From IMG/VR virus record IMGVR_UViG_3300021387_000452: a DNA stretch of 64,000 bases; one strand, given 5' to 3'. This stretch comes from a virus (lineage: Duplodnaviria > Caudoviricetes). The position numbers and the translations under genes are program-made. The notes beneath the pieces were generated by a model. It did not search any database, was not told the origin of the DNA, and saw only the letters and a program-made list of their open reading frames with translations. Every line of letters begins with the position of its first letter. Positions within the stretch are counted from its first letter, which is position 1. Positions 4,037 through 62,600 of this stretch are shown here, in pieces.

Positions 4037-4212
4037 AAAAGGAGCGGGCCAAATTTTATTTCACAACAATACTTAACCCTAGCAGAACATGACATGAAAA
4101 TGGAAGAATGTTGATTCTCGACAACATTGATCTCATTTATATTATACATAACTTAGAAAGAGAATGCAACTAAATTATGCATAATCTTATCATCTCATTT
4201 AAAGATGATAAA

Positions 4213-4285
4213 CAGGCCACAGAGGATTCGAACCTCTATCCTCGGTTTTGGAGACCGAGATGCTGAACCATTACACCAGCAACCT
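4213..4285 (-). tRNA. tRNA-Trp(CCA)
   Basis: Loop CTCCAAA. Confidence 0.9.
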
Positions 4286-5446: not shown

Positions 5447-5721
5447 AAAACCATAGTATGAAAGGCACGACTCTCACGTACTGCCAAGCTCCAATTGCTA
5501 CCCCATCCCGGTTTAGACAACTGGTTTGCCAAGCTCCCATACTATAGTTAGTTAACAAGTCATTTCCATTACCATACGTTAGGACTTTTTCAGGCTCTAC
5601 GTTCTGTTACTCTATTACATTCAACCGTCTTACGTATATGCACCTTGTGCACCAAATACATACAGTGGGCGATGTGTATTCTTTACCATGCAGACTAGCT
5701 CTTCGTAGCAATGACTTGTAA

Positions 5722-5799
5722 TGGAAAATGAAAGAATCGAACTTTTCATCTAACGACCCAATAAAGGGTCGGTTATTTTACCAGTTAAACTAATTTTCC
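5722..5799 (-). ncRNA. tRNA-like RNA with a lengthened anticodon stem and 6-nt loop
   Basis: GGAAAAT/ATTTTCC-A acceptor; arm CGACCC-TTTATT-GGGTCG. Confidence 0.7.
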
Positions 5800-5804
5800 A
5801 TAAA

Positions 5805-5976
5805 TGAGAAATGTAGGATTTGAACCTACTCCTTTCATGGCATCTAATATAATTCCTATAATTGTGTTAATCCTGAACTTATAGAGAAGTGACTCTCTAC
5901 TCGGGAATTGAACCCGACCAATTATAGGTATTAGTTTATAGCTTCATGAATATTCTACCAACTAAACTAATTTCAC
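5805..5976 (-). ncRNA. Double-elbow tRNA-like RNA (tRNA with a permuted tRNA body replacing the anticodon loop)
   Basis: Outer acceptor, D and T arms plus an inner T arm (5901-5917), capped acceptor-like stem (5881-5900) and D-like arm (5866-5878). Confidence 0.7.
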
Positions 5977-5980
5977 ATAA

Positions 5981-6064
5981 TGGAGAGGGGAAGATTCGAA
6001 CTTCCGAAGCCTTTCGGCGCAGAATTTACAGTCCTGACCTGTTGACCGCTTAGGTAACCTCTCC
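5981..6064 (-). tRNA. tRNA-Tyr(GUA)
   Basis: Loop CTGTAAA; variable arm. Confidence 0.9.
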
Positions 6065-6091
6065 AAGCAAATTAAATAGATATCTTTCTTT

Positions 6092-6110
6092 TATTCAGTT
6101 GTCAAAGATC
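6092..6110 (-). promoter_or_regulatory. rrn-type boxA antitermination-like site upstream of the tRNA operon
   Basis: GATCTTTGACAACTGAATA. Confidence 0.6.
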
Positions 6111-6133
6111 TTAGAACTATCTATTAGTTAGTT

Positions 6134-6385
6134 CTATTGAATCTTGCTTTTCGTAAACTGTCTATAGGCTTTCATCCAAGCTGGATTAAAACCATCAAGA
6201 ACTATCTTTGATTTAAAGTCGTTTGTCGGGACGACATCTTTATAGATATTTGAAATTGTAGAAGCATCTTCTTCAGAAAGAAGATTAAGATCAAGCCCAC
6301 CAATATAGACATCATTTTCTTTAATGACGAAGACCTTACGAGATTTCGTACCATTGGATGATGTATAGGTAAACTCTTTAATCAT
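6134..6385 (-). CDS. Hypothetical protein
   Basis: ORF with AGGAG RBS downstream of a repeated promoter cassette. Confidence 0.7.
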   Translation of the reverse strand: MIKEFTYTSSNGTKSRKVFVIKENDVYIGGLDLNLLSEEDASTISNIYKDVVPTNDFKSKIVLDGFNPAWMKAYRQFTKSKIQ

Positions 6386-12531: not shown

Positions 12532-13869
12532 CAAGCTTTAAGGGCTCATTTAGAGCCCTTTTATTGTGTCACGAAAAAGTCAATTAAAACGGAAGACTTA
12601 ATTGTGCTGAATAGTTTGCATAACTTTCTTCATCTATAGTTTTCTTATCGATGTACTCATCAAGAACTTTAATTGCTACATCAAGTGCAATTCCGAGCTG
12701 AGTAGGATTCACCATCTCATAGTGATTAGGTATATGATCATCTCGACGCCAGACGTTATGATGAATTAGAATATCTCTTGCTTCTTCTACTGTCATACCA
12801 AAATCTCACCTGGAACTGTGTACAAAACTACTGTAAAGAATAATTAGTGATTCTCTCAAGTTTTGCCGATCAAGTCCCTAGCCTTATTCATCTAGTCGGG
12901 TTCGTGTCTAGCTGCTTAATCTTTAATTGAAAGTGATGTATGAGGTCACGAGTCGCACACACAGATACATGTATTTCAAAGCAAGCTATTAAGAATAGCC
13001 AATTATTTAATAAAATCAATATGTCTTTGCCAGCACCGAGTAGTACTTCTAGAACATCCGGGACCTACATAAGTAGGCGCCTTAGACCTACGAGAGTCAG
13101 TTCTTGACTAAGCTAGCTGTCTTAACTCTCATCCATAAGAATTAAGGATCCTGAACAGGCCTATCACGACGTGAATGACTTATCGATACTAATTGAAGCA
13201 AATTAAGAATTCTAGATTCAGCTTCGTGATCTTGTCATGGGTCATCAGATAATCATGCCAATGAGACTAAAAGTCTCTACATATAATAGATATACAAGAG
13301 TTGTTCTTATTGTTTAATCACATAATAGCTTTATCATCACCTAAAGCAATTAAAAGTATTACTATTGCTACTCACAAAAGAATCACTCTAGAGTGACTTA
13401 TTTATCACAAATGGTAAATTATACCAGCGTGACTATAACATCTATTATGAGTGATTTAGCACACTATCTAAATATCACTCAGAATCACTCTCTACTCACT
13501 CAACTTAATAGACTTATATTTATATGAATCATCTAAAAAGTGATCTACAAATGAATTCTGAAATAAAGAGTGTTGGTGAATATGAGTCGCGGGAACATCA
13601 GCAGATGATTTGTTTTGAGTTGAAACAGGCATGAAGAGCACGAAAAATTTCGTGCGATGAATAAAATGCGCGGGACTCTCACAAAAAGATTTTTCTGCTA
13701 AATTGAAATGCCATGAACTAGTTCATGGGAAGAAGAAATTCTTTTTATAATAAATATTATTTATTATTTATATTATTAATAAAATAAACATTATTTGTTA
13801 TTTTTGAAGAAGAAGATTAGGAAGGAGATTAGGATTAAGATTAGAATTGAGATTAGAGTGAAGAGCATC

Positions 13870-13891
13870 AGACTGAGGCATGCCTCAGTCT
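13870..13891. repeat. Perfect 22-bp palindrome
   Basis: AGACTGAGGCATGCCTCAGTCT. Confidence 0.95.
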
Positions 13892-13973
13892 TTTGCCAAT
13901 TTCAATAAATTATTGGGTATTTGAGAAAGTGAGTTATTTTCTCTACTCTAAAATTCATCATTAAATGTCTCCT

Positions 13974-14192
13974 CTAATAGAAGTTCTTCGTCTGAAATTA
14001 CTCTCTGATAGAAGTTCTTCAGATGAGTAGAAATTCACATTCCATAAAAATCAATTGAATTTCACAAATGAAGCTATTTAAGTTCATGACGAAAGAGTTT
14101 TTCTAATAGAAGTTCTTCGCATAAAAATAGCACGAAAGAAATTCCTAATAGGAGTTCTTCGTGCGAATGAAAATTACTAATAAGAGTTCTTC
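13974..14192 (+). repeat. Five iteron-like 16-bp direct repeats CTRATARRAGTTCTTC
   Basis: Copies at 13974, 14005, 14103, 14145, 14177. Confidence 0.85.
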
Positions 14193-24892: not shown

Positions 24893-26095
24893 TTACTCAC
24901 TAGCCTTAAAATTATACATAGGTTTTATGACTTCAACAATATCAATAGTGTCTTTCACTAATTCTATAATCTCTTCAGCCGGTTTGTACGCCATCGGAGA
25001 TTCATCCAGAGTGGATTCATTTACAGAAGTAGTAAATATACCTTCCATTGAGTGTTTAAAATCATCCATTGCAATCGAGTTCTTTGCCTGTTTACGAGAC
25101 ATTAACCGACCAGCACCGTGTGGCCCTGAACAGTTCCAGTCTTCGTTTCCTTTACCGATTCCTATAATAGAACCATCTCGCATGTTTAATGGAATGATTA
25201 CTTTCTCACCTTTATTACAACGAATAGCTCCTTTACGAATTATGTTATCTTCAAAGTCAATATAATTGTGAACAGTGTGGAACACTTCAACAGGTGTAAC
25301 TTTTAAGAATTCCAAGATTCGCTGCGCAATCTCTTCACGATTCTTGACAGCGTATTCCTGACATATCTTCATATCATGTAAATAATTATCTCTGTGAGCT
25401 CCTTCCAAGTAGCATAAATCATCTGGGATCTTTTGTGCTGAAGCAAACTTTTCTCGTAATTCACGAATAGCATCTTTGATCTCTTTGTGACGTAAAGCTT
25501 CTTTATACTCAGCAATCAACTGTTCAGTTTTAGCTTTTATCTCTTCAGACTTAACATTGCAATCTTCAATTGCCATCGCCTGATAATATCTGCAAACCTG
25601 CTGGCCTAAGTTACGAGATCCGGTGTGTATAACTAAATAAACATCACCTGATTCTGATTTGTTCAATTCTATGAAGTGATTGCCTCCGCCCAATGAACCA
25701 ATTGATGCATGCAAGTGTTCAACATTTCGCAACTCACGTCGCATAAATAATTTGTCTAAATCATCAAAGCCAATAGTATGAGTCACATCATTTGCTGACA
25801 TTCCTGACGGAATATTTTCATGGATGAATTTGTCTAATTCTGCCAATCGCTCATCAGATAAATTCAATTTGCCCATATTGACTACATACATTCCGCAGCC
25901 CACGTCGACGCCTACTAAGTTTGGAACTACTTTATCTCCAAGGTCAGCAGTAAATCCAATAACACAGCCTTTACCTGCATGAGTGTCCGGCATAATACGA
26001 ACTTTTGCGTCTCTAAAAACGTTAACTGACATCAGCTGTTTTAACTGATCATATACTTCTTGTTCTACAGTCTTTGCAAATATTTTTACACTCAT
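24893..26095 (-). CDS. rtcB: RtcB RNA 3'-phosphate/5'-OH ligase
   Basis: MPDTHAG, GVDVGCG, GGGNHFIE, HTGSR, HNY, HGAGR, DESPMAYK. Confidence 0.95.
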   Translation of the reverse strand: MSVKIFAKTVEQEVYDQLKQLMSVNVFRDAKVRIMPDTHAGKGCVIGFTADLGDKVVPNLVGVDVGCGMYVVNMGKLNLSDERLAELDKFIHENIPSGMSANDVTHTIGFDDLDKLFMRRELRNVEHLHASIGSLGGGNHFIELNKSESGDVYLVIHTGSRNLGQQVCRYYQAMAIEDCNVKSEEIKAKTEQLIAEYKEALRHKEIKDAIRELREKFASAQKIPDDLCYLEGAHRDNYLHDMKICQEYAVKNREEIAQRILEFLKVTPVEVFHTVHNYIDFEDNIIRKGAIRCNKGEKVIIPLNMRDGSIIGIGKGNEDWNCSGPHGAGRLMSRKQAKNSIAMDDFKHSMEGIFTTSVNESTLDESPMAYKPAEEIIELVKDTIDIVEVIKPMYNFKASE

Positions 26096-26312
26096 AGGAC
26101 CCTCCCAAAGCATAAGCTATTTTGTTATAGTGAAAAAACTACTGAGTCGTCTTCAACAAAAACGTCGTCTTTTTCAACAACGCCATCATCTTTTATCGCC
26201 TCGCCGTATTCAGAAAATGATAAGACTGAATAACGAACTTCAGCATCTTGATCAGCGTGTGAAAGTAATTCCATCAAATCAGCAACTCGCATTTTGTATC
26301 TCCAGTGAATTA

Positions 26313-26390: not shown

Positions 26391-27695
26391 TTATTTCCAA
26401 CTTTCCATTAAACTAGAAATGGCATCGTCAACTTTAGACGCGTGAGAATTATTTTGGTTATTGTAGTATTCATCAATCTCAGCAATTCTTTCGTCTCTTT
26501 CCTTAGACTCAAGAACTTCATATTTGCATCTTGTAAGAACGGTTTGCTTCTGACTGTGATATTCATCATGAGCTTTAATTTTACCAGACAGCTGTATGGT
26601 GGCGCCTTTGTCTAATGGGTACCACTGAGTATAGTTTGCACGATCATCTTTTACTGTAAATTCTAAGCCAGTTCCAGTAGACCACTTAAAAATATTTCCG
26701 TTGTCATCCATGAACAGATGGATATGAGAACTACCAAATTGAGTATCATATGTATGAGTATTCATATAGGTAACTTTAACAGAGATTTTATCACCTACAT
26801 TACCAACATACTCGCTGGATTTTTTATCTGAATTCTTAAGATCAATGAGCCTTTTATATTCACTCTTACGATATGATGGAATTAACGAAGCGAGAAATCC
26901 AAAGTGTCTTGCTGTACAATATCCAGCATCTATGATCTGTCTAAGATTAAATAGGTAACTAGATCTATTCAACTCTTCTTCTGATAAGCAGTGAATCCAT
27001 TCAATAGCATCAACTGCTTCACTCTCAACTCTATTTCTATCATATGCGTCCATGATGAATTTCCATGTAGCATTCATACTACTGGAAGGCTCAAATCCAT
27101 ATTGATCAATAAGTCTCTTTGCAGCTGAAACGATGTCCACTATATCATATGTTCTAATACCGTTAGACTCAAAGAATTCACCAGCGTATTTTTCTCCATC
27201 TATAATGGATTTTAGATCAGAGCTTTTCTCTTCTAACACTCTCATGTATTCACTTACTTCAGCAATAAGATTACCATCCAAACCAGATGTGAATTCTTTT
27301 ACGCATGAGGTGCCAACAACTTTTCTTTCACCAGACTCATTTTCTAATACGGTGATTGAATTGCGATAGACATTCTTATGACAATGATCACAATGAAAAT
27401 CAGTGTCTTTATATTGAGCAATCAAGCTAGCATCGTCGAAGTAGCACTGAACAATTCCATCTTTTCTTTGAACTAAGCCAAGTGAACGCCAACCATTGAG
27501 TTTAAATGTAACGTCAAGATTAAGATCAACGAGACTGACTTCAAAATTATTACCATCAACACTAACAAGCTTGGTATATGGGTCGCTTACATTAAACGTG
27601 TATGGCACTTGATTCTTTTCACATTTCTTAGTGATGCGACTAATTTTTCTGCAGATATCTTTAGCCATATTATTAAGAATCGTGTAAGTTGCCAT
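26391..27695 (-). CDS. Conserved phage protein with CDHC...VGxxC Zn motif and C-terminal OB-like domain (start corrected)
   Basis: CDHCHK, VGTSC, YVGNVGDK...GKIKAHDEY..KQTVLTR. Confidence 0.65.
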   Translation of the reverse strand: MATYTILNNMAKDICRKISRITKKCEKNQVPYTFNVSDPYTKLVSVDGNNFEVSLVDLNLDVTFKLNGWRSLGLVQRKDGIVQCYFDDASLIAQYKDTDFHCDHCHKNVYRNSITVLENESGERKVVGTSCVKEFTSGLDGNLIAEVSEYMRVLEEKSSDLKSIIDGEKYAGEFFESNGIRTYDIVDIVSAAKRLIDQYGFEPSSSMNATWKFIMDAYDRNRVESEAVDAIEWIHCLSEEELNRSSYLFNLRQIIDAGYCTARHFGFLASLIPSYRKSEYKRLIDLKNSDKKSSEYVGNVGDKISVKVTYMNTHTYDTQFGSSHIHLFMDDNGNIFKWSTGTGLEFTVKDDRANYTQWYPLDKGATIQLSGKIKAHDEYHSQKQTVLTRCKYEVLESKERDERIAEIDEYYNNQNNSHASKVDDAISSLMESWK

Positions 27696-27714
27696 GTTCT
27701 GTTCTCCTTGAGTT

Positions 27715-27806
27715 ATCAAATGGAACCATTCCATTTGATTTATGAATCTCTTATAAACTAGACTGAGAACTGTGTAAAATAAAATCACCATATAAATGGT
27801 GATTTT
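27715..27806 (-). promoter_or_regulatory. Repeated promoter cassette
   Basis: Hairpin TCAAATGGAA-TGG-TTCCATTTGA. Confidence 0.8.
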
Positions 27807-28250
27807 AAGTAGTGCTACTTTATGTGAATGTAGATCCATTCAACAGAAGACTCAAACGCTTCTTTCATACTATCTATGAATGATAGAGCTTGATTTAACG
27901 TTTGAAATGTAGTAAATACAGGACTTTCTAGACTATCACTAGAATCGTGTCTAAGCACATACTCAACAACGTACATATTCTTACCTAGATACATGGGTCT
28001 AGTTGAAAGTCTTGAATAGAAAGCTCTAAGCAATTTACTCTAGAATCAGCGCGGTCTACTGGAATAACTCCATCGAGATCTTTGTCATAAAATCCATAGC
28101 ATGCAATAGCAGTTTTTCCGATCATTAAATCTCTGTTTACTTCATCTTCATCAAGACTATCATATGATGAATCACAAAAGATTATGTCAAGCTCTTGATC
28201 ATACTGTGAAAGCATGCTTATTAAGTCTTTTACTTTCATGCTATTTTCCT

Positions 28251-29420
28251 TTATCGGTGATATTTAAGAAGAAAATTTGGAGATACGCATTTGAAGTTCT
28301 GCTGACCATCTTGTGAATAGAAAACAAACCCTTCAATATCGCCATCATCGATTGCAGATTTACATGAATCTACGTAATCAACAATTTCTTCTACTGATTT
28401 TGGAATTTTATAATCATAGTCATAGACATGAACGTGTGGTAGATCTCGATCATCACAAACCTTAATCATTTCTTTAATCGGTAATCGTTTACCATCAAAC
28501 CAAATATGAAATACCACAAAGTCGTGTTTATTGTTATTCAATGAGTAATTACGTTTTTGTACTTTGTCACCGTAAGTCTCACCTTGAATTGCAACAGTCT
28601 TTAAACCATGTACAATTTTTAGAGACTTAAGCAGTTCTTTCATATTGTATTTAGCACCTGATTCAGCCCAGATATTATTTTTGAAATAGTTTCCGCCATC
28701 TGAGTCTTTCTCAGGATTCTTAATTACATTATGTGAACCAACTAAATAATTATCCTTCTCATCAAGAATAAATGATGTAGATGCACCGTCAACTTTCTCT
28801 GTAATAATATATGTATCGTCTGAACCTAGCAATTGTGGAAGATTCTGAATGCGCTCAGAGCCAGTTTTCGGCAACCACTCCGGCCACTTACATTTTGCCT
28901 TGTCCTTTTTATGAACAAAGATCTTTGAGAGTAGCCAACGAGCAAATCTGAACTTCATTGCAAATCTAATAATAGAGCTATTAAAGAATTTTTTATGACG
29001 ATCCATTGCACGTTGAAAATCATTTACTTTTTGTTTTGGCTGATTCTCACATACTGGCTCAGGATCATACTTCTCTACGTGAAGTTTATCAGTAACAAAG
29101 TCACCTTCTTTGCAGCCTTTCAGTTCTGGGAAATCAGACAATGGTAAGATTAGTCCCTGACTAACAGTCTTACACATCTTCTGCGTTAAAACGCGATACT
29201 TACGTTTTTCCATAAATGAAAAACGCTCGTCATTAGAAGGCAGAAGAGAGTCAATTTCAAAATAAACTACAAGGTCACCAACTTTAATTTCTTTTGGTGC
29301 AACACACCACCACCCAAGAACTTTACAGCTGTGTACACGATCATATCCATCAAGGTCTTTTGCCTCAGCTACTTTAACAATGTAAGCAAGTTCGCGTTCA
29401 TTAGTTTTAGGGTTTAACAT
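28251..29420 (-). CDS. ATP-dependent RNA ligase, Rnl2/DRB0094 family
   Basis: N-terminal VVYFEIDS..SQGL domain; TEKVDG motif I, QGE, EGFV, FKCVS. Confidence 0.9.
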   Translation of the reverse strand: MLNPKTNERELAYIVKVAEAKDLDGYDRVHSCKVLGWWCVAPKEIKVGDLVVYFEIDSLLPSNDERFSFMEKRKYRVLTQKMCKTVSQGLILPLSDFPELKGCKEGDFVTDKLHVEKYDPEPVCENQPKQKVNDFQRAMDRHKKFFNSSIIRFAMKFRFARWLLSKIFVHKKDKAKCKWPEWLPKTGSERIQNLPQLLGSDDTYIITEKVDGASTSFILDEKDNYLVGSHNVIKNPEKDSDGGNYFKNNIWAESGAKYNMKELLKSLKIVHGLKTVAIQGETYGDKVQKRNYSLNNNKHDFVVFHIWFDGKRLPIKEMIKVCDDRDLPHVHVYDYDYKIPKSVEEIVDYVDSCKSAIDDGDIEGFVFYSQDGQQNFKCVSPNFLLKYHR

Positions 29421-29673
29421 GTTTAATTCTCCTTTACTGAAGTCCGTCTTCAAAGTTACAGATACTAACGTTTATTTCTGTTGCCAAATCTTCTACCGCT
29501 TTTCTAGCAATTCGTAATTTATCGTAAAGACCATCACTAATATAATGTGAACTAATAGCACAATTCAATCTTAATAATGAAGACAATAAATCAGAACATA
29601 ATCTCTTTGAATCCATTAAACAAGCTATCTCGTAAGCATCTTTAATTTGCTTGTTCTGCATATTACTAATCTC

Positions 29674-59632: not shown

Positions 59633-62600
59633 TAATAAAACAAAAGCTCAGATGGAATCCATCTGAGCTTTAATTGTATCTAGACCTCGTTAGTTATATC
59701 ATTTGGATCTTCATCCACGCTAGTTGGTGAAATTTCATCGACTAGATTCAACGCAGTCCTAACATATAATTCTACAAGATCTATTTGAATTGGGCTATGA
59801 TTTGCATTTCTGCAAACATCTAGTGCACCAAGTAGGTAGTATCTCAAGAAGTGTAGATAAGTTTCAACAGACTTCTTCGCCATCATAATCACCTCTCACA
59901 AAAAGATTATATGTGATTATCATACCGAGCCCCTGGTGAAGTTTGTTCATTATCTTGTTGATATTACTTACACAAATCTTTTACGAATCTTACACATATC
60001 TTTTCTAACATTCTTTCATATGATGCTATAGCTTCAGCAAAATCATCATCATACAAGTCATCATGCTCATCCATCATCTCTTTAACAGAGTCTAATAATG
60101 TAATTAGCTCTACAGTTGGCTTTATGTCGTCAAAGTCTGAGCTCTTATCATCTTGTTCTTCATTAACTAAGTTAGGTATGATTGACTGATTAGATGAAAG
60201 TATAGCTTTGAAACTCATCTCAACTATATACTTATCACGAATACCAGCGCCTGAATAGAGTCTTGTTGGTGATACAGAACATAAACTATATTTTCTAATG
60301 ACTACATTGTTTGAATCATACATTGTTAGCTCTGCATTTGGTTGCTTAGGTAAAGATGGCTGTTGACGATGCCATACACTAAATGAATGCAGCACATCTG
60401 AGTTGCATGTATGTATAATATCAAAGTACACACTGTTTCCATCTATTGAAAAGTCACAGGCACTAAATTCTGCATTGTTTATATTACTGAATTCTGAATC
60501 AGTAAATACTACTAACATGTGATCAACAACCGATTCCATATCATGTCTCCATCTGATTATATGCTATTTCCATTGTTTACAATCTCTTCTAATTCCAGAC
60601 TATACTTATCATTCAAGTCTCTTCCAAGCTCTCGTATGTAAGCATTCTCACACCCATTAACATGACAGAATATATGAATGATATCGATTAACGCTTGTGC
60701 TACAATTTGAATGTTACGCTCTGCGATTAGTTCTTCATCAGTTCTCATTTTGTTTACACTCCTCACGTAGCTTCTTGAAAAGTTTGTGAATTCTTTTATA
60801 GTTGGGACTTTTCTTTTTAATACGAATTGTACATGAGATAGGCTCTCTTGGAATATTGAAAGATTCAATCAGTTGCTTTATTTCTGTGCAGCTTCTTTTT
60901 AGACTTTAACAGTTCAGGAAAACTGTATTCTTTTGAAAACTCTAAAAAGTCATTATAAGCATTATCTATAATAAACCAATGACCATCATCAAAACACCAT
61001 GCTTTAAACCAGTCTGAATGAAACGGCTGCATATCCCACTCTTGATCGTATGGTATAAAGTCGTCATACTCTTTATCATAATAGCATTCTATAGCTTCAC
61101 CGCTGTGAAATATGCAAATGACACTTGCACCATCTTTTGGTCTATGCCCGGTTGAAATTAAATGCCATGCTCTTCTATTCATATTGCTATGCTCCAAAAA
61201 TAGATCTCAAATCATCTTTGTCTGACACGCTATATAAGGTATATAGCTTATAATTACATGATAGCACTGCCCCATAGTAAGCATCATATTGTTTTCCAAA
61301 TATATTGTACTTCATTACATGAGTGTCAATATGATTAGCAATGAATACAGCAGCTGCTCTCATACTTGAGAAATAGATTTGAATAAATTCTCTATTACCG
61401 TCTTTTACCGGATTTGAGAATACTACTTTACATAGCTTCTTTCGATATGATCTTTCTTGTGGGTTAGACGTTACACACTGTGTAAATAATTCAATATTTA
61501 CTATGTGGTTATTTACGTCAAACTTTTTGCTATATCTTGTCTTATGTCTTTTCATAGAATTACGTCTCTAACAACGTTGTTGCTCACAATCTTTATTACA
61601 CATTGCTTTTATCTTTTCAACTTCACGCTTGTAAATAGGCTCACTATCATAATCAGTTTTGTACCAATGAACAGTATGCTCATCTTCTTTGACAGCTTTT
61701 GAAATATTTACACGACGGCATAATAATTTAACCATGCAGTCAGCCTGTTCGCATACATATTCATAGCTGTAGTCAGGTGCAAAGTAAGAAGCCATTGCAT
61801 AAAACATATTACACTTAGAGAGTGTATCATTTATTGTTATAGCATATAAATACTGACCTACTTTAAGGTTTTCAATATATGGCGCATCTTGTCGTCCTTC
61901 CGCAATAACCCTAAGACCGCTTGCGAAATTATCAACCAAAATTGCACATGGAATTACGCCACGGTTACTCATATCATCGCTCATACTAATATCTCCTTAT
62001 AGAATAACATCCCTAACAATGCGGCTATACCAAATAGGATCGTCTTTATAAATATCAGCCCATTTCTTTATGTATTTATTAACATATTCATCACTGAATG
62101 CTACAGCGCCACTCCAATCGTAGAATATGTTATTTATCCTGCAGAGAAAATGTCCATCAACGGTGTCATAGTATATCACCGGATCATCTAGCTCAAATCG
62201 TGTTGCTAAGATAACTGCAAAATAATAACAGTTACCTGTTTTCCAATTGCAATCGATTTTGAATCGTCTATCAATAAATTCTAATACTTCTTGTGCTATC
62301 ATATTAATCACAGTCGTGAAATAAATCAATATGGTTTTCTCTTGCTTCTAATTACAAGAAGCCTCTATATCTTTAATATATACCCAAGAGTCAAAACGTG
62401 TTTCAGGATCGTAATTATACTCTAAATCACTTAAAAGCCATTTGCTGTCTTTAACAGAAGTTCCAGATTCTAGATTGCCAACCATATATTCAATGAATGA
62501 TTTATCTTTACCTGTTACAGGATTATACACAGTCACTGTCTTAAATCTTATTAAAACAGGATTATCAACGTCTGGCAATTTCTCAGAAAGTTTAGTCCAC

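What the first reader, a model, noticed from the sequence alone, without database searches (positions are those of the whole stretch)
5805..5976. Double-elbow RNA: a tRNA whose anticodon loop is replaced by a second, circularly permuted tRNA body
Seen (minus strand): the outer tRNA has acceptor GTGAAAT/ATTTCTC-A, a D arm and T arm GTAGG-TTCAAAT-CCTAC. Its anticodon stem TTCATG/CATGAA has no loop. It extends through CTAATA/TATTAG and CCTATAATTG/CAATTATAGG into a second domain ordered T arm (TCGGG-TTCAATT-CCCGA), 7-bp acceptor-like stem capped by a loop (GTAGAGA-GTCACT-TCTCTAT), 2 nt, D-like arm (GTT-CAGGATT-AAC), A, which is canonical tRNA spacing. Established: this T/capped-acceptor/D permutation is the architecture of the tRNA-like module of bacterial YrlA Y RNAs, which occur with Ro60 (Rsr) and RtcB. 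Inference: a 172-nt dumbbell with two tRNA elbows and no anticodon, excised from the tRNA operon through its outer tRNA. It could act as a decoy or scaffold for elbow-recognising factors (host tRNA-targeting defence, T-box RNAs, ribosome, PNPase/Ro) or as a substrate for the phage RNA ligases. I know of no described RNA with this fusion.
Basis: partly seen in the sequence, partly recalled or inferred. Interest (0 to 1): 0.88.

Follow-up and report, generated by a model that had tools for sequence, protein, structure and literature searches.

The report
Phage tRNA shell carrying capped tRNA mimic
A ruminant-gut phage encodes, inside its tRNA gene array, a conserved 172-base RNA in which a sealed, rearranged tRNA look-alike sits where the anticodon loop of an outer tRNA-shaped shell should be. 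I found this design in no paper or database, and its job is still unknown.

Summary
Window 5976-5805 (minus strand) folds as described. I found nine distinct intact homologues in ruminant and gut metagenome phage contigs. They keep 98% of the proposed pairs, against 39-47% in slid controls. Eighteen pairs show changes on both sides.

The new result is that the RNA has two parts that evolve differently.
- The 105-nt core is the rod plus T arm, capped stem and D-like arm. It stays 86-90% identical between lineages.
- The outer tRNA shell drops to 50-56% identity. Its acceptor stem is rewritten four times and always pairs.

So the shell looks like an interchangeable tRNA-type processing and stability handle, and the core looks like the working part. 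[quoted passage not shown] It is not a YrlA member: there is no Rfam hit, no Ro-binding module and no TROVE or DUF2828 gene in reach. It is also not a decoding tRNA, a group I or bulge-helix-bulge intron, or two tandem tRNAs.

The best reading is a natural "tRNA scaffold" that displays a non-chargeable tRNA-elbow mimic, which acts as a decoy or adaptor. That function is inferred, not shown.

This scan noted a similar two-elbow RNA before on other phage DNA (e1-5392792).

The parts
5805..5976 (-). Whole 172-nt RNA gene (p1 = 5976, p172 = 5805). It lies 3 nt after tRNA-Tyr (5980-6065) and 4 nt before the tRNA-like gene 5721-5800.
   Evidence: Model R1 scores 208.7 bits here, and nine intact homologues score 127-213 bits.
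5970..5976 (-). Outer acceptor 5' strand GUGAAAU. It pairs with 5806-5812.
   Evidence: All 7 pairs show changes on both sides among the homologues: GUGAAAU/AUUUCUC, UGGGAAU/AUUCCCA, ACCAUGU/ACAUGGU, GUCAUAC/GUAUGAC, GUCAUAC/GUGUGGC.
5952..5967 (-). Outer D arm GUUU-AGUUGGUA-GAAU, with GG in the loop.
   Evidence: G.U to G-C changes. RNAalifold predicts 3 of its pairs.
5945..5950 (-). Outer anticodon-type stem, 5' strand UUCAUG. It pairs with 5834-5839. No anticodon loop follows.
   Evidence: 4 of 6 pairs change on both sides. The L156-type copies have a 7-bp stem with one bulged U.
5840..5944 (-). Conserved 105-nt core (p33-137): internal loop, rod helices and the capped, permuted tRNA-like module.
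   Evidence: 86-90% identity between lineages, against 50-56% for the shell (Fisher p = 3e-6). The boundaries at G32|A33 and C137|C138 are sharp.
5935..5944 (-). Internal loop, 5' side: AAGCUAUAAA, facing AUGC at 5840-5843. Nearly invariant.
   Evidence: Only p33 and p40-41 vary (AA, or C with a 1-nt deletion).
5929..5934 (-). Rod helix 4, 5' strand CUAAUA. It pairs with UAUUAG at 5844-5849.
   Evidence: Invariant in all copies, so covariation neither supports nor contradicts it. RNAalifold predicts it.
5919..5928 (-). Rod helix 5, 5' strand CCUAUAAUUG. It pairs with CAAUUAUAGG at 5855-5864. This is the anticodon-stem equivalent of the inner module.
   Evidence: 100% paired. One A-U to G-C double change in L242 and two wobble-compatible changes.
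5901..5917 (-). Inner T arm UCGGG-UUCAAUU-CCCGA, preceded by a single G (5918) as the 'variable region'.
   Evidence: Stem variants UCGGG/CCCGA, UCUGG/CCAGA, UCACG/CGUGA, UUACG/CGUGA and UCCGG/CCGGA all pair. The loop UUCAAUU is invariant in intact copies.
5881..5900 (-). Capped acceptor-like stem-loop GUAGAGA-GUCACU-UCUCUAU.
   Evidence: 2 pairs change on both sides. The loop varies in sequence (GUCACU, AUCAAA, AUCAAU, ACAACU, UAUUAU). L242 has only 5 bp plus an A.C mismatch and a 5-nt loop. L088 has an A.C mismatch.
5866..5880 (-). AA junction (5879-5880) and inner D-like arm GUU-CAGGAUU-AAC, followed by A at 5865.
   Evidence: AA, the stem, and A103-G104-G105-A106-U107 are invariant apart from one change at the closing pair. 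Only one G-C to G.U change, so the 3-bp stem is consistent with the data but not proven by covariation.
5850..5854 (-). 5-nt bulge A-NNN-A on the 3' strand, between rod helices 5 and 4.
   Evidence: The middle three nt vary (AUU, AUC, UCU, ACC). The closing A is invariant and the opening A changes only in L131 (C).
5813..5829 (-). Outer T arm GUAGG-UUCAAAU-CCUAC, preceded by a 4-nt variable region (5830-5833).
   Evidence: 2 pairs change on both sides. Loop positions 54-58 are kept and 59-60 vary, as in tRNAs.
5805..5812 (-). Outer acceptor 3' strand AUUUCUC plus discriminator A. No encoded CCA.
   Evidence: The discriminator is A in eight copies and U in L131.

Best explanation
This is a real, conserved non-coding RNA gene in a roughly 200-kb ruminant-gut phage. 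It has two unequal parts.

(1) The outer shell has an acceptor stem, D arm, stem and T arm. It is a generic tRNA body whose only conserved properties are pairing and the tRNA loop consensus. It most likely serves as a processing and stability handle. RNase P would cut its 5' end. The 3' end would be trimmed and CCA added, as for the neighbouring tRNAs. The folded body would protect the RNA. This is the natural counterpart of the engineered 'tRNA scaffold', in which the anticodon stem-loop is replaced by a cargo RNA.

(2) The cargo is the conserved 105-nt core. It is an irregular rod of about 20 bp that ends in a tRNA-elbow mimic with a hairpin-closed acceptor end. [quoted passage not shown]

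The cap removes the free 3' end of the inner module, and neither domain has an anticodon loop. So the RNA cannot decode. I propose it works as a stable tRNA look-alike that occupies or recruits a factor that reads the tRNA elbow and adjacent stems. That factor could be a host tRNA-directed nuclease or defence protein, a tRNA-processing or modification enzyme, or a phage RNA-repair enzyme.

Shown: the architecture, its conservation, the split between shell and core, and the exclusion of the tRNA, intron and YrlA family assignments.
Inferred: processing through the shell, and the decoy or adaptor role.
For: - Structure: 98.3% of cells pair and 18 pairs change on both sides in nine intact homologues, far above the slid and shuffled controls. 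RNAalifold gives an independent de novo prediction. The single-sequence fold of L131 reproduces the architecture.
- Shell against core: core identity is 86-90% and shell identity 50-56% between the window-type and L156-type copies. The neighbouring tRNA-like gene keeps 85% over the same divergence. L131 shares the T arm and AC stem of L113 exactly but has 5 of 7 acceptor pairs rewritten.
- No identity signal is conserved in the shell. There are four acceptor sequences and the discriminator is A or U.
- The window-type and L131 shells, given a neutral 7-nt loop, are called as tRNA by ARAGORN in 6 of 6 cases.
- Gene packing with 3-5 nt spacers and no encoded CCA matches the flanking tRNAs.
- The same arrays hold other tRNA shells with different inserts in place of the anticodon loop.
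- In the two copies where a gene cassette removed the shell's 3' strand, one has changes at positions that are invariant in all intact copies.
- The inner connectivity equals that of YrlA (PMC4201824; 10.1101/312249).
- The tRNA-scaffold principle is described in PMC3401473.
Against: - There is no expression or end-mapping data, so processing and stability are inferred.
- No partner protein is identified. No gene co-occurs cleanly with the element: RtcB is present in related records both with and without it.
- The element is patchy even among close relatives and is absent from a 95%-complete 204-kb relative, so it is dispensable.
- Rod helix 4 and the inner D-like stem are invariant or nearly so. 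They are therefore unproven by covariation, and their invariance could reflect a DNA-level constraint.
- The inner module fails a tRNA detector when re-permuted, so its L-shape is assumed from loop consensus only.
- The outer D and T loops mostly keep elbow nucleotides, so the shell may be more than a handle.
Confidence: 0.55

Rival explanations
1. Both heads matter. The RNA is a true two-elbow device, a covalent analogue of an anticodon-anticodon tRNA dimer. It bridges or titrates two elbow-binding sites at a fixed distance. The outer tRNA may also be charged or bound by tRNA-binding factors.
For: The outer T loop keeps positions 54-58 in all copies. The outer D loop keeps GG in 8 of 9 copies. 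Rod length is nearly constant: helices 4 and 5 are invariant in length and total length is 169-172 nt. An earlier scan report describes another two-elbow phage RNA (e1-5392792).
Against: L237 has lost one G of the outer D-loop GG. The L156-type shells are not tRNA-grade for ARAGORN. No acceptor or discriminator identity is conserved, and the shell is the fastest-evolving part. All of these features are also what a mere RNase P / CCA handle needs.
Confidence: 0.2
2. The core is an intron-like or mobile cassette sitting in the anticodon loop of different tRNA-type genes. It may be cut out and ligated or circularised by the phage RtcB. Alternatively the cap is opened by RNase P, as in M. smegmatis YrlA, giving a two-piece RNA with two acceptor ends.
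For: Conservation boundaries are sharp at G32|A33 and C137|C138, and two shells no more alike than unrelated tRNAs (50-56% identity) carry the same core at the same site. The phage encodes RtcB and an Rnl-type ligase. Related arrays do carry tRNA introns. [quoted passage not shown]
Against: Removing the conserved block leaves UUCAUG|CAUGAA with no loop, and no split of the block gives a loop with U33 and a purine at 37. There is no group I hit (RF00028) at E <= 10, although that model finds the true intron in L104. The core is 105 nt, and its boundaries are G|A and C|C, not U| and G|. The bulges next to the stem are on one strand, not in a 3-4-3 bulge-helix-bulge arrangement. No uninterrupted copy of any shell was found in 2.3 Mb of related loci. 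The cap is only 5 bp plus A.C in L242 and has A.C in L088, which makes them poor RNase P substrates.
Confidence: 0.13
3. It is evolutionary debris: two tandem tRNA genes or a decaying pseudo-tRNA whose halves happen to pair, with no function of its own.
For: tRNA arrays in these phages are mosaic and hold many odd tRNA-like genes. The element is absent from many close relatives, and two copies are truncated.
Against: Read as two tandem cloverleaves, the acceptor strands do not pair (GUGAAAU against GUAGAGA). Compensatory changes occur in six helices across phages whose ThyX proteins are only 70% identical. Loop consensus nucleotides are invariant.
Confidence: 0.04
4. The invariance of the rod reflects a DNA-level role, such as an inverted repeat acting as a recombination or protein-binding site or an internal promoter with TATAAT, rather than an RNA function.
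For: Helices 4 and 5 form a 16-bp inverted repeat that hardly varies. CCTATAATTG contains a perfect -10 hexamer.
Against: The promoter scan finds no qualifying site in the element. The changes that do occur in helix 5 keep RNA pairing, including U.G on the transcribed strand and one double change. The segment between the repeats shows RNA-type covariation.
Confidence: 0.05

Closest known systems
YrlA (Y RNA-like A), tRNA-like effector domain. S. Typhimurium, M. smegmatis, mycobacteriophages. Rfam YrlA family; Chen et al. 2014, PMC4201824; crystal structure preprint 10.1101/312249.
   Same: The order of elements is identical: anticodon-stem strand, T stem-loop abutting a closed acceptor-like stem-loop, 2 nt, D stem-loop, 1 nt, anticodon-stem strand. 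It has the T-loop UUCRA and D-loop GG needed for the elbow. It has no free CCA. It extends from the anticodon-type stem into a second module. It occurs in a genome that also encodes RtcB.
   Different: The second module is a tRNA body, not a Ro60-binding helix. There is no GNCGAA-type motif. No Ro60/TROVE gene was found. The Rfam model gives no hit at E <= 10. The junction is AA instead of the conserved UA. The variable region is 1 nt and the D loop is shorter. It is encoded inside a tRNA array rather than beside rsr.
Engineered tRNA scaffold for recombinant RNA (Ponchon and Dardel 2007, as described in PMC3401473).
   Same: [quoted passage not shown] The tRNA body is meant to secure processing and protect against nucleases.
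   Different: This one is natural and evolved. Its cargo is itself a tRNA mimic. Processing of this RNA has not been shown.
Stable 'species 1' and 'species 2' RNAs (rnaC, rnaD) of the phage T4 tRNA cluster. This comparison is from my own knowledge; I did not retrieve a paper.
   Same: They are non-decoding stable RNAs co-transcribed and co-processed with phage tRNAs, and their function is unknown.
   Different: There is no sequence similarity: a blastn 'distant' search of 50,697 phage records found nothing. I know of no nested permuted tRNA module reported for them.
Circularly permuted tRNA genes (Cyanidioschyzon merolae) and two-piece, permuted tmRNA.
   Same: A 3' tRNA half (T arm plus acceptor 3' strand) is encoded upstream of the 5' half (acceptor 5' strand plus D arm), joined by a short linker.
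   Different: Those are matured into functional, chargeable molecules through bulge-helix-bulge splicing or cleavage. Here there is no anticodon loop, no tag reading frame and no bulge-helix-bulge motif. The Rfam tmRNA_permuted hit is 10.8 bits on the T arm only. ARAGORN rejects the re-permuted module.
tRNA-like processing handles: mascRNA at the MALAT1 3' end, and the gammaherpesvirus 68 tRNA-miRNA units. From my own knowledge.
   Same: A tRNA-shaped element recruits RNase P or RNase Z to define the ends of a linked non-coding RNA.
   Different: There the tRNA-like part is cut away from its cargo. Here the cargo is nested inside the tRNA body and should stay attached.

Membership tests
YrlA / bacterial Y RNA | Connectivity AC strand - (V) - T stem-loop - closed acceptor-like stem-loop - D stem-loop - AC strand | tested here: met
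   Sequence. The T stem and cap are supported by double changes. The order was checked against PMC4201824 and 10.1101/312249.
YrlA / bacterial Y RNA | Elbow nucleotides: T-loop U54 U55 C56 R57 A58, and two G in the D loop | tested here: met
   UUCAA and GG are invariant in all nine intact copies. Formation in 3D was not tested.
YrlA / bacterial Y RNA | Ro60-binding module formed by the RNA's 5' and 3' ends, with a conserved motif | tested here: not met
   The ends form a tRNA acceptor stem with D and T arms instead. There is no GNCGAA motif in the element.
YrlA / bacterial Y RNA | Encoded near a Ro60 (TROVE) gene | tested here: not met
   The window's ORFs of 400 aa or more have no TROVE hit. 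The 482-aa ORF beside RtcB models as an OB-fold protein. PF05731 and PF11443 are absent from 4 related records, including one with the element. Limits: these records are fragments, only 64 kb of about 200 kb is visible here, and the DUF2828 (PF11443) search matched none of the 14 control genomes, so that negative is uninformative.
YrlA / bacterial Y RNA | Match to the Rfam covariance model | tested here: not met
   No YrlA hit at E <= 10 with permissive filters on the window, L242 and L131 copies.
Decoding tRNA | Cloverleaf with a 5-bp anticodon stem and a 7-nt loop (U33, purine 37) | tested here: not met
   ARAGORN does not call it. The Rfam tRNA model gives 20 bits against a gathering score of 29, on the 3' part only. 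No loop exists after UUCAUG.
Decoding tRNA | Acceptor, D and T arms of tRNA grade (outer shell) | tested here: met
   With a neutral loop in place of the core, ARAGORN of 6 window-type and L131 shells. It of 3 L156-type shells at default thresholds and 1 of 3 at lowered thresholds.
tRNA gene with group I intron | Group I catalytic core (Rfam RF00028); intron follows a U and ends in G | tested here: not met
   No RF00028 hit at E <= 10, while the model scores 55 bits on the true intron in L104. The core is 105 nt. Its boundaries are G|A and C|C.
Archaeal / eukaryal-type tRNA intron | Bulge-helix-bulge (3-4-3) motif at the exon-intron junctions | tested here: not met
   By inspection, the unpaired nucleotides next to the outer stem lie on the 5' strand (10 nt) against 4 nt on the other strand. 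No 3-nt bulges on opposite strands are separated by 4 bp. I had no dedicated tool for this motif.
Permuted tRNA gene / permuted tmRNA | The halves re-join into a molecule recognisable as tRNA, or as tmRNA with a tag frame | tested here: not met
   The re-permuted inner module is rejected by ARAGORN in 9 of 9 copies, also at lowered thresholds. ARAGORN finds no tmRNA in the window. tmRNA_permuted scores 10.8 bits.
Two-elbow phage RNAs noted earlier by this scan (e1-5392792) | One tRNA body built into the opened anticodon loop of another; retention of the valine identity bases A35 C36 | tested here: inconclusive
   The architecture is the same. I see no anticodon-loop remnant with A35 C36 here (the positions after UUCAU read G-A-A-G-C-U-A).

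The most novel reading that the evidence does not exclude
The 105-nt core may be a self-contained unit that moves between tRNA-type genes or is freed from them. In one version it is cut out of its shell and circularised by the phage RtcB into a circular, permuted tRNA mimic. In another, its cap is opened by RNase P and CCA is added, as in M. smegmatis YrlA. That would give a two-piece RNA with two tRNA acceptor ends and no anticodon. Either version would be a new kind of tRNA-derived RNA biogenesis in a bacterial virus.
Probability: 0.12. Interest if true: 0.85.

Novelty: new variant of a known kind. Interest (0 to 1): 0.62.

Why it matters
tRNA mimicry is a recurring way for viruses and cells to engage the translation and RNA-processing machinery. 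Few bacterial or phage mimics are known, and the partner of the best-studied one, YrlA, is still unidentified. This RNA shows that the YrlA-type capped, permuted tRNA module exists without Ro60. Here it is mounted on a tRNA body and encoded among real tRNAs.

That has three consequences:
- It gives a natural precedent for the tRNA-scaffold trick used in RNA production.
- It offers a compact, highly conserved bait (the 105-nt core) for pulling down whatever reads this kind of elbow.
- Together with the other cargo-bearing tRNA shells in the same arrays, it suggests that large phage 'tRNA clusters' are also expression platforms for non-decoding RNAs. These RNAs are missed by tRNA finders and by Rfam.

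Tried and rejected
Homologue searches that found little or nothing:
- Megablast and blastn 'distant' against 50,697 phage records: no match.
- Three IMG/VR pattern scans built on the window copy alone found nothing. Two of them were too strict at positions that later proved variable.
- Two later IMG/VR scans found only one record.
- GTDB genome contigs: no match with two patterns.
It gave 118 chance matches and 2 true ones, so more homologues probably exist that I could not reach.
- Loci found through ThyX (80 loci) contain no copy.

Ro60 idea:
- The 482-aa ORF beside RtcB has no Pfam or PDB sequence hit.
- Its AlphaFold model (pLDDT 87) matches only OB folds.

Other ideas rejected:
- Internal promoter: not found by the scan.
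- Loop-loop pairing between AUAAA of the internal loop and the UUUAU loop of the neighbouring tRNA-like gene. The two do not co-vary: L156 has UUCAU, and L242 has a changed internal loop.
- The internal loop CUAUAAA as an anticodon-loop mimic (it resembles CUGUAAA of tRNA-Tyr). L242 and L111 read CUAUCAC, so it is not conserved.
- A search for uninterrupted copies of the shells found none.

Co-occurrence with RtcB is inconclusive.
Full report
**What is there**

From the outside in, it has:
- a 7-bp acceptor stem, with one U.U in this copy;
- a D arm with GG in the loop;
- a 6-bp anticodon-type stem that is not closed by a loop;
- an irregular rod: internal loop AAGCUAUAAA/AUGC, a 6-bp helix, a 5-nt bulge and a 10-bp helix;
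- a single G;
- a T arm with loop UUCAAUU that directly abuts a 7-bp hairpin with a 6-nt loop;
- AA;
- a 3-bp D-like arm with loop CAGGAUU;
- A.

The chain then returns down the rod to a 4-nt variable region, a second T arm, the acceptor 3' strand and discriminator A.

The unit lies 3 nt after tRNA-Tyr (5980-6065) and 4 nt before a tRNA-like gene (5721-5800). It sits in an array of 20 ARAGORN calls. No ORF of 60 aa or more overlaps it.

ARAGORN does not call it. Rfam gives only a sub-threshold tRNA hit (20 bits) on the 3' part, plus a trivial T-arm hit. Nothing is found for YrlA, group I introns or ribozymes at E <= 10.

**Setting**

The window belongs to an uncultured phage.
- No whole genome is held for it.
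- It has no DNA similarity to 50,697 phage records.
- Related IMG/VR records are 72-204 kb, at 34-95% estimated completeness.
- ENA record names carry ruminant and gut dataset tags.
- The window encodes RtcB (24893-26113), an Rnl-type RNA ligase (28251-29453), ThyX and methyltransferases.

**Homologues**

The collections cannot be searched with an RNA model, so I reached related arrays in two ways.
- Through the 83-aa ORF just upstream (6134-6385) and, later, a 143-aa ORF next to a divergent copy.
- Through one metagenome and several IMG/VR pattern scans.

A covariance model built on the proposed structure (R1) then picked out the true copies.

The result is nine distinct intact sequences: window (= L112), L113/L116, L115, L088-L091, L092, L131, L156, L237 and L242-L244. 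Two further copies, L111 and L114, have lost the outer T-stem 3' strand and acceptor 3' strand to an inserted promoter-plus-gene cassette.

Many close relatives lack the element, including a 95%-complete 204-kb record.

**Is the structure real?**

Yes.
- On the nine intact copies, 98.3% of cells form standard pairs, against 39-47% when partners are slid by 1-3 columns.
- Eighteen pairs show changes on both sides, against 2-3 in the slid controls.
- None of 500 shuffles reaches the observed values for four of the five whole-structure measures (36 of 500 reach it for further pair types).
- That alignment was fitted to the model. As an independent check, RNAalifold on a plain MAFFT alignment predicts de novo the outer acceptor, outer D stem, both rod helices, the inner T arm, the cap and the outer T arm. 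Fifteen of its pairs are kept through double changes.
- The MFE fold of L131 alone reproduces the architecture (z = -4.4).

Support by helix:

| Helix | Pairs with double changes | Note |
|---|---|---|
| Outer acceptor | 7 of 7 | |
| Outer anticodon-type stem | 4 of 6 | |
| Outer T stem | 2 of 5 | |
| Inner T stem | 2 of 5 | Five pairing variants across all eleven copies (UCUGG/CCAGA only in the truncated L111/L114) |
| Cap | 2 of 7 | |
| 10-bp rod helix | 1 of 10 | Plus two wobble-compatible changes |
| 6-bp rod helix | 0 | Invariant |
| Inner D-like stem | 0 | Only one G-C to G.U change |

The last two are therefore consistent with the data but unproven.

Blemishes are an A.C in the cap of L088/L092, an A.C in the outer T stem of L115, and a U.C in the outer T stem of L088.

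**The main new finding: shell and core evolve differently**

Between the window-type and L156-type copies:
- the core (p33-137) is 86-90% identical;
- the shell is 50-56% identical, about what unrelated tRNAs share (Fisher p = 3e-6);
- the neighbouring tRNA-like gene keeps 85% over the same divergence.

So the shell is the outlier. The switch is abrupt, at G32|A33 and C137|C138.

The acceptor stem occurs as GUGAAAU/AUUUCUC, UGGGAAU/AUUCCCA, ACCAUGU/ACAUGGU, GUCAUAC/GUAUGAC and GUCAUAC/GUGUGGC, and it always pairs. L131 shares the T arm, variable region and anticodon-type stem of L113 exactly, yet 5 of its 7 acceptor pairs are rewritten. That pattern suggests module exchange rather than slow drift.

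No acceptor or discriminator identity is conserved. What is kept in the shell is tRNA shape:
- With a neutral loop in place of the core, ARAGORN calls the window-type and L131 shells as tRNAs in 6 of 6 cases. The L156-type shells are less canonical.
- T-loop positions 54-58 are kept, while 59-60 vary, as in real tRNAs.

Within the core, variation is confined to the covarying T stem, the cap loop (six different sequences), the middle of the 5-nt bulge, two D-loop positions and two internal-loop positions.

**What it is not**

- *Not a decoding tRNA.* There is no anticodon loop.
- *Not a tRNA with an intron.* Removing the conserved block leaves UUCAUG|CAUGAA with no loop. No division of the block yields a loop with U33 and a purine at 37. 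The block is 105 nt. Its boundaries are not U| and G|. RF00028 is silent here, although it scores 55 bits on the genuine group I intron in a tRNA of a related array (L104 901-1111). The unpaired nucleotides at the junction do not form a bulge-helix-bulge.
- *Not two tandem tRNAs.* The acceptor strands of a tandem reading do not pair.
- *Not a permuted tRNA or tmRNA gene.* The re-permuted inner module is rejected by ARAGORN in all nine copies, and there is no tag frame.
- *Not a member of the YrlA family.* There is no model hit on three copies, no Ro-binding module and no Ro60.

On Ro60 specifically:
- The six ORFs of 400 aa or more in the window have no TROVE hit.
- The 482-aa ORF between RtcB and the ligase is a conserved protein of about 434 aa. 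Its confident model matches only OB folds.
- TROVE and DUF2828 are absent from four related records, one of which carries the element.
- The limits: these records are fragments, I see only 64 kb of this genome, and the DUF2828 search matched no control genome, so it shows nothing about that family.

**What it works like**

[quoted passage not shown] In the S. Typhimurium structure the anticodon-type stem (nt 15-27 and 83-93) encloses a T stem-loop (33-49), a closed acceptor-like stem-loop (50-64), two nucleotides and a D stem-loop (67-81). T-loop nucleotides and two D-loop guanines form the elbow (10.1101/312249; PMC4201824).

The differences here are AA instead of UA at the junction, a 1-nt variable region and a shorter D loop.

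The outer shell behaves like the engineered tRNA scaffold. In that method the anticodon stem-loop is replaced by a structured RNA, so that the chimera is processed and protected like a tRNA (PMC3401473).

The same arrays hold other tRNA shells with different inserts at the same site, of 91 nt and 101 nt. This fits a general use of tRNA bodies as carriers.

**Most likely mechanism**

This section is inferred. The array transcript is cut by RNase P at 5976. The 3' end is trimmed and CCA is added. The folded shell stabilises the RNA. The conserved rod and the capped elbow are then displayed to a factor that recognises the tRNA elbow and adjacent stems. The RNA acts as a non-cleavable, non-chargeable decoy or as an adaptor.

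The cap probably stays closed. Chen et al. link RNase P opening of M. smegmatis YrlA to its 7-bp stem. L242 has only 5 bp plus an A.C mismatch, and L088 has an internal A.C.

The near-invariance of the rod, including its unpaired nucleotides, points to sequence-specific recognition there. I could not identify the partner.

**Rivals**

Four alternatives are considered; their evidence is set out in the rival explanations.
- A true two-elbow device in which the outer head also acts.
- An intron-like, mobile, RtcB-circularised or RNase-P-opened core.
- A DNA-level role for the inverted repeat.
- Debris.

**Earlier notes of this scan**

The same stretch was flagged twice by first readers. Another agent reported a 176-nt two-elbow RNA in a different giant phage (e1-5392792), so this architecture has been seen before by the scan on other DNA. 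I could not test relatedness, and I do not see its 'valine' bases here. Notes on phage Y-like RNAs beside Ro60-like or DUF2828 proteins led me to test for such a protein, with a negative result.

**Verdict**

This is a real, conserved, apparently undescribed RNA. It is a new variant built from known kinds of parts: a YrlA-type tRNA mimic on a tRNA-type carrier. Its function is open.

Noticed in passing
L104:901-1111; L003:~13830-14100: tRNA genes in related phage arrays carry a genuine group I intron in the anticodon loop (RF00028, 55 bits in L104). The same insert can be read in L003.
   Followed up: partly
L131:2697-2770; L242:3575-3645; L003:14133-14203; L114:~4150-4220: A tRNA-like RNA of about 72 nt (GCGGAGU...ACUCCGC-UACCA) has a genomically encoded CCA and an unusual T loop (UUCAUAU/UUCAUAC in L131, L003 and L114; CUCAUAA in L242). 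It directly follows the dumbbell in L131 and L242. Rfam scores the L242 copy as tRNA at 50.7 bits. ARAGORN misses the L131, L003 and L114 copies; I did not run ARAGORN on L242.
   Followed up: no
L085:2218-2308, L088:5168-5258 (91 nt); L088:5060-5160, L131:2775-2870, L114:4225-4325 (about 101 nt): Other conserved tRNA shells have the anticodon loop replaced by different structured inserts. One insert has a CUGAUGAG...GAUCAG stem. This suggests that tRNA bodies are used repeatedly as carriers in these arrays.
   Followed up: no
window 5721-5800 and about 5600-5720; L156:3581-3765; L242:3216-3400: The tRNA-like gene with an enlarged anticodon arm, plus an RNA of about 105 nt after it, lies next to the dumbbell in both lineages but in opposite order. 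This may be a linked trio of non-coding RNAs.
   Followed up: partly
L111:3573-3760; L114:3473-3650: A promoter-plus-gene cassette replaced the 3' end of the dumbbell's outer shell. L114 then carries changes at positions invariant in all intact copies (C to U in the inner T loop, and C137A).
   Followed up: partly
window 26391-27839 (-), probably starting near 27692: A conserved protein of about 434 aa lies between RtcB and the Rnl-type ligase. It has no Pfam family. Its AlphaFold model has pLDDT 87 and matches only OB-fold, ssDNA/RNA-binding structures. It has invariant Cys/His residues that suggest a zinc site. It has at least 149 homologues in gut and rumen assemblies.
   Followed up: partly
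window 6092-6136 (-): TTGACA, 17 nt, TATCTA lies about 30 nt upstream of tRNA-Tyr. It is conserved in L111, L114 and L104 and is likely the promoter of the RNA array. The weak Rfam DUF2693 hit here (E = 9.5) is not meaningful.
   Followed up: no
IMGVR_UViG_3300021255_002417: 59835-60005 (L237/L238): In this relative the dumbbell is not in the main tRNA array. It sits in a small separate RNA cluster about 20-25 kb away, followed directly by a protein gene.
   Followed up: partly
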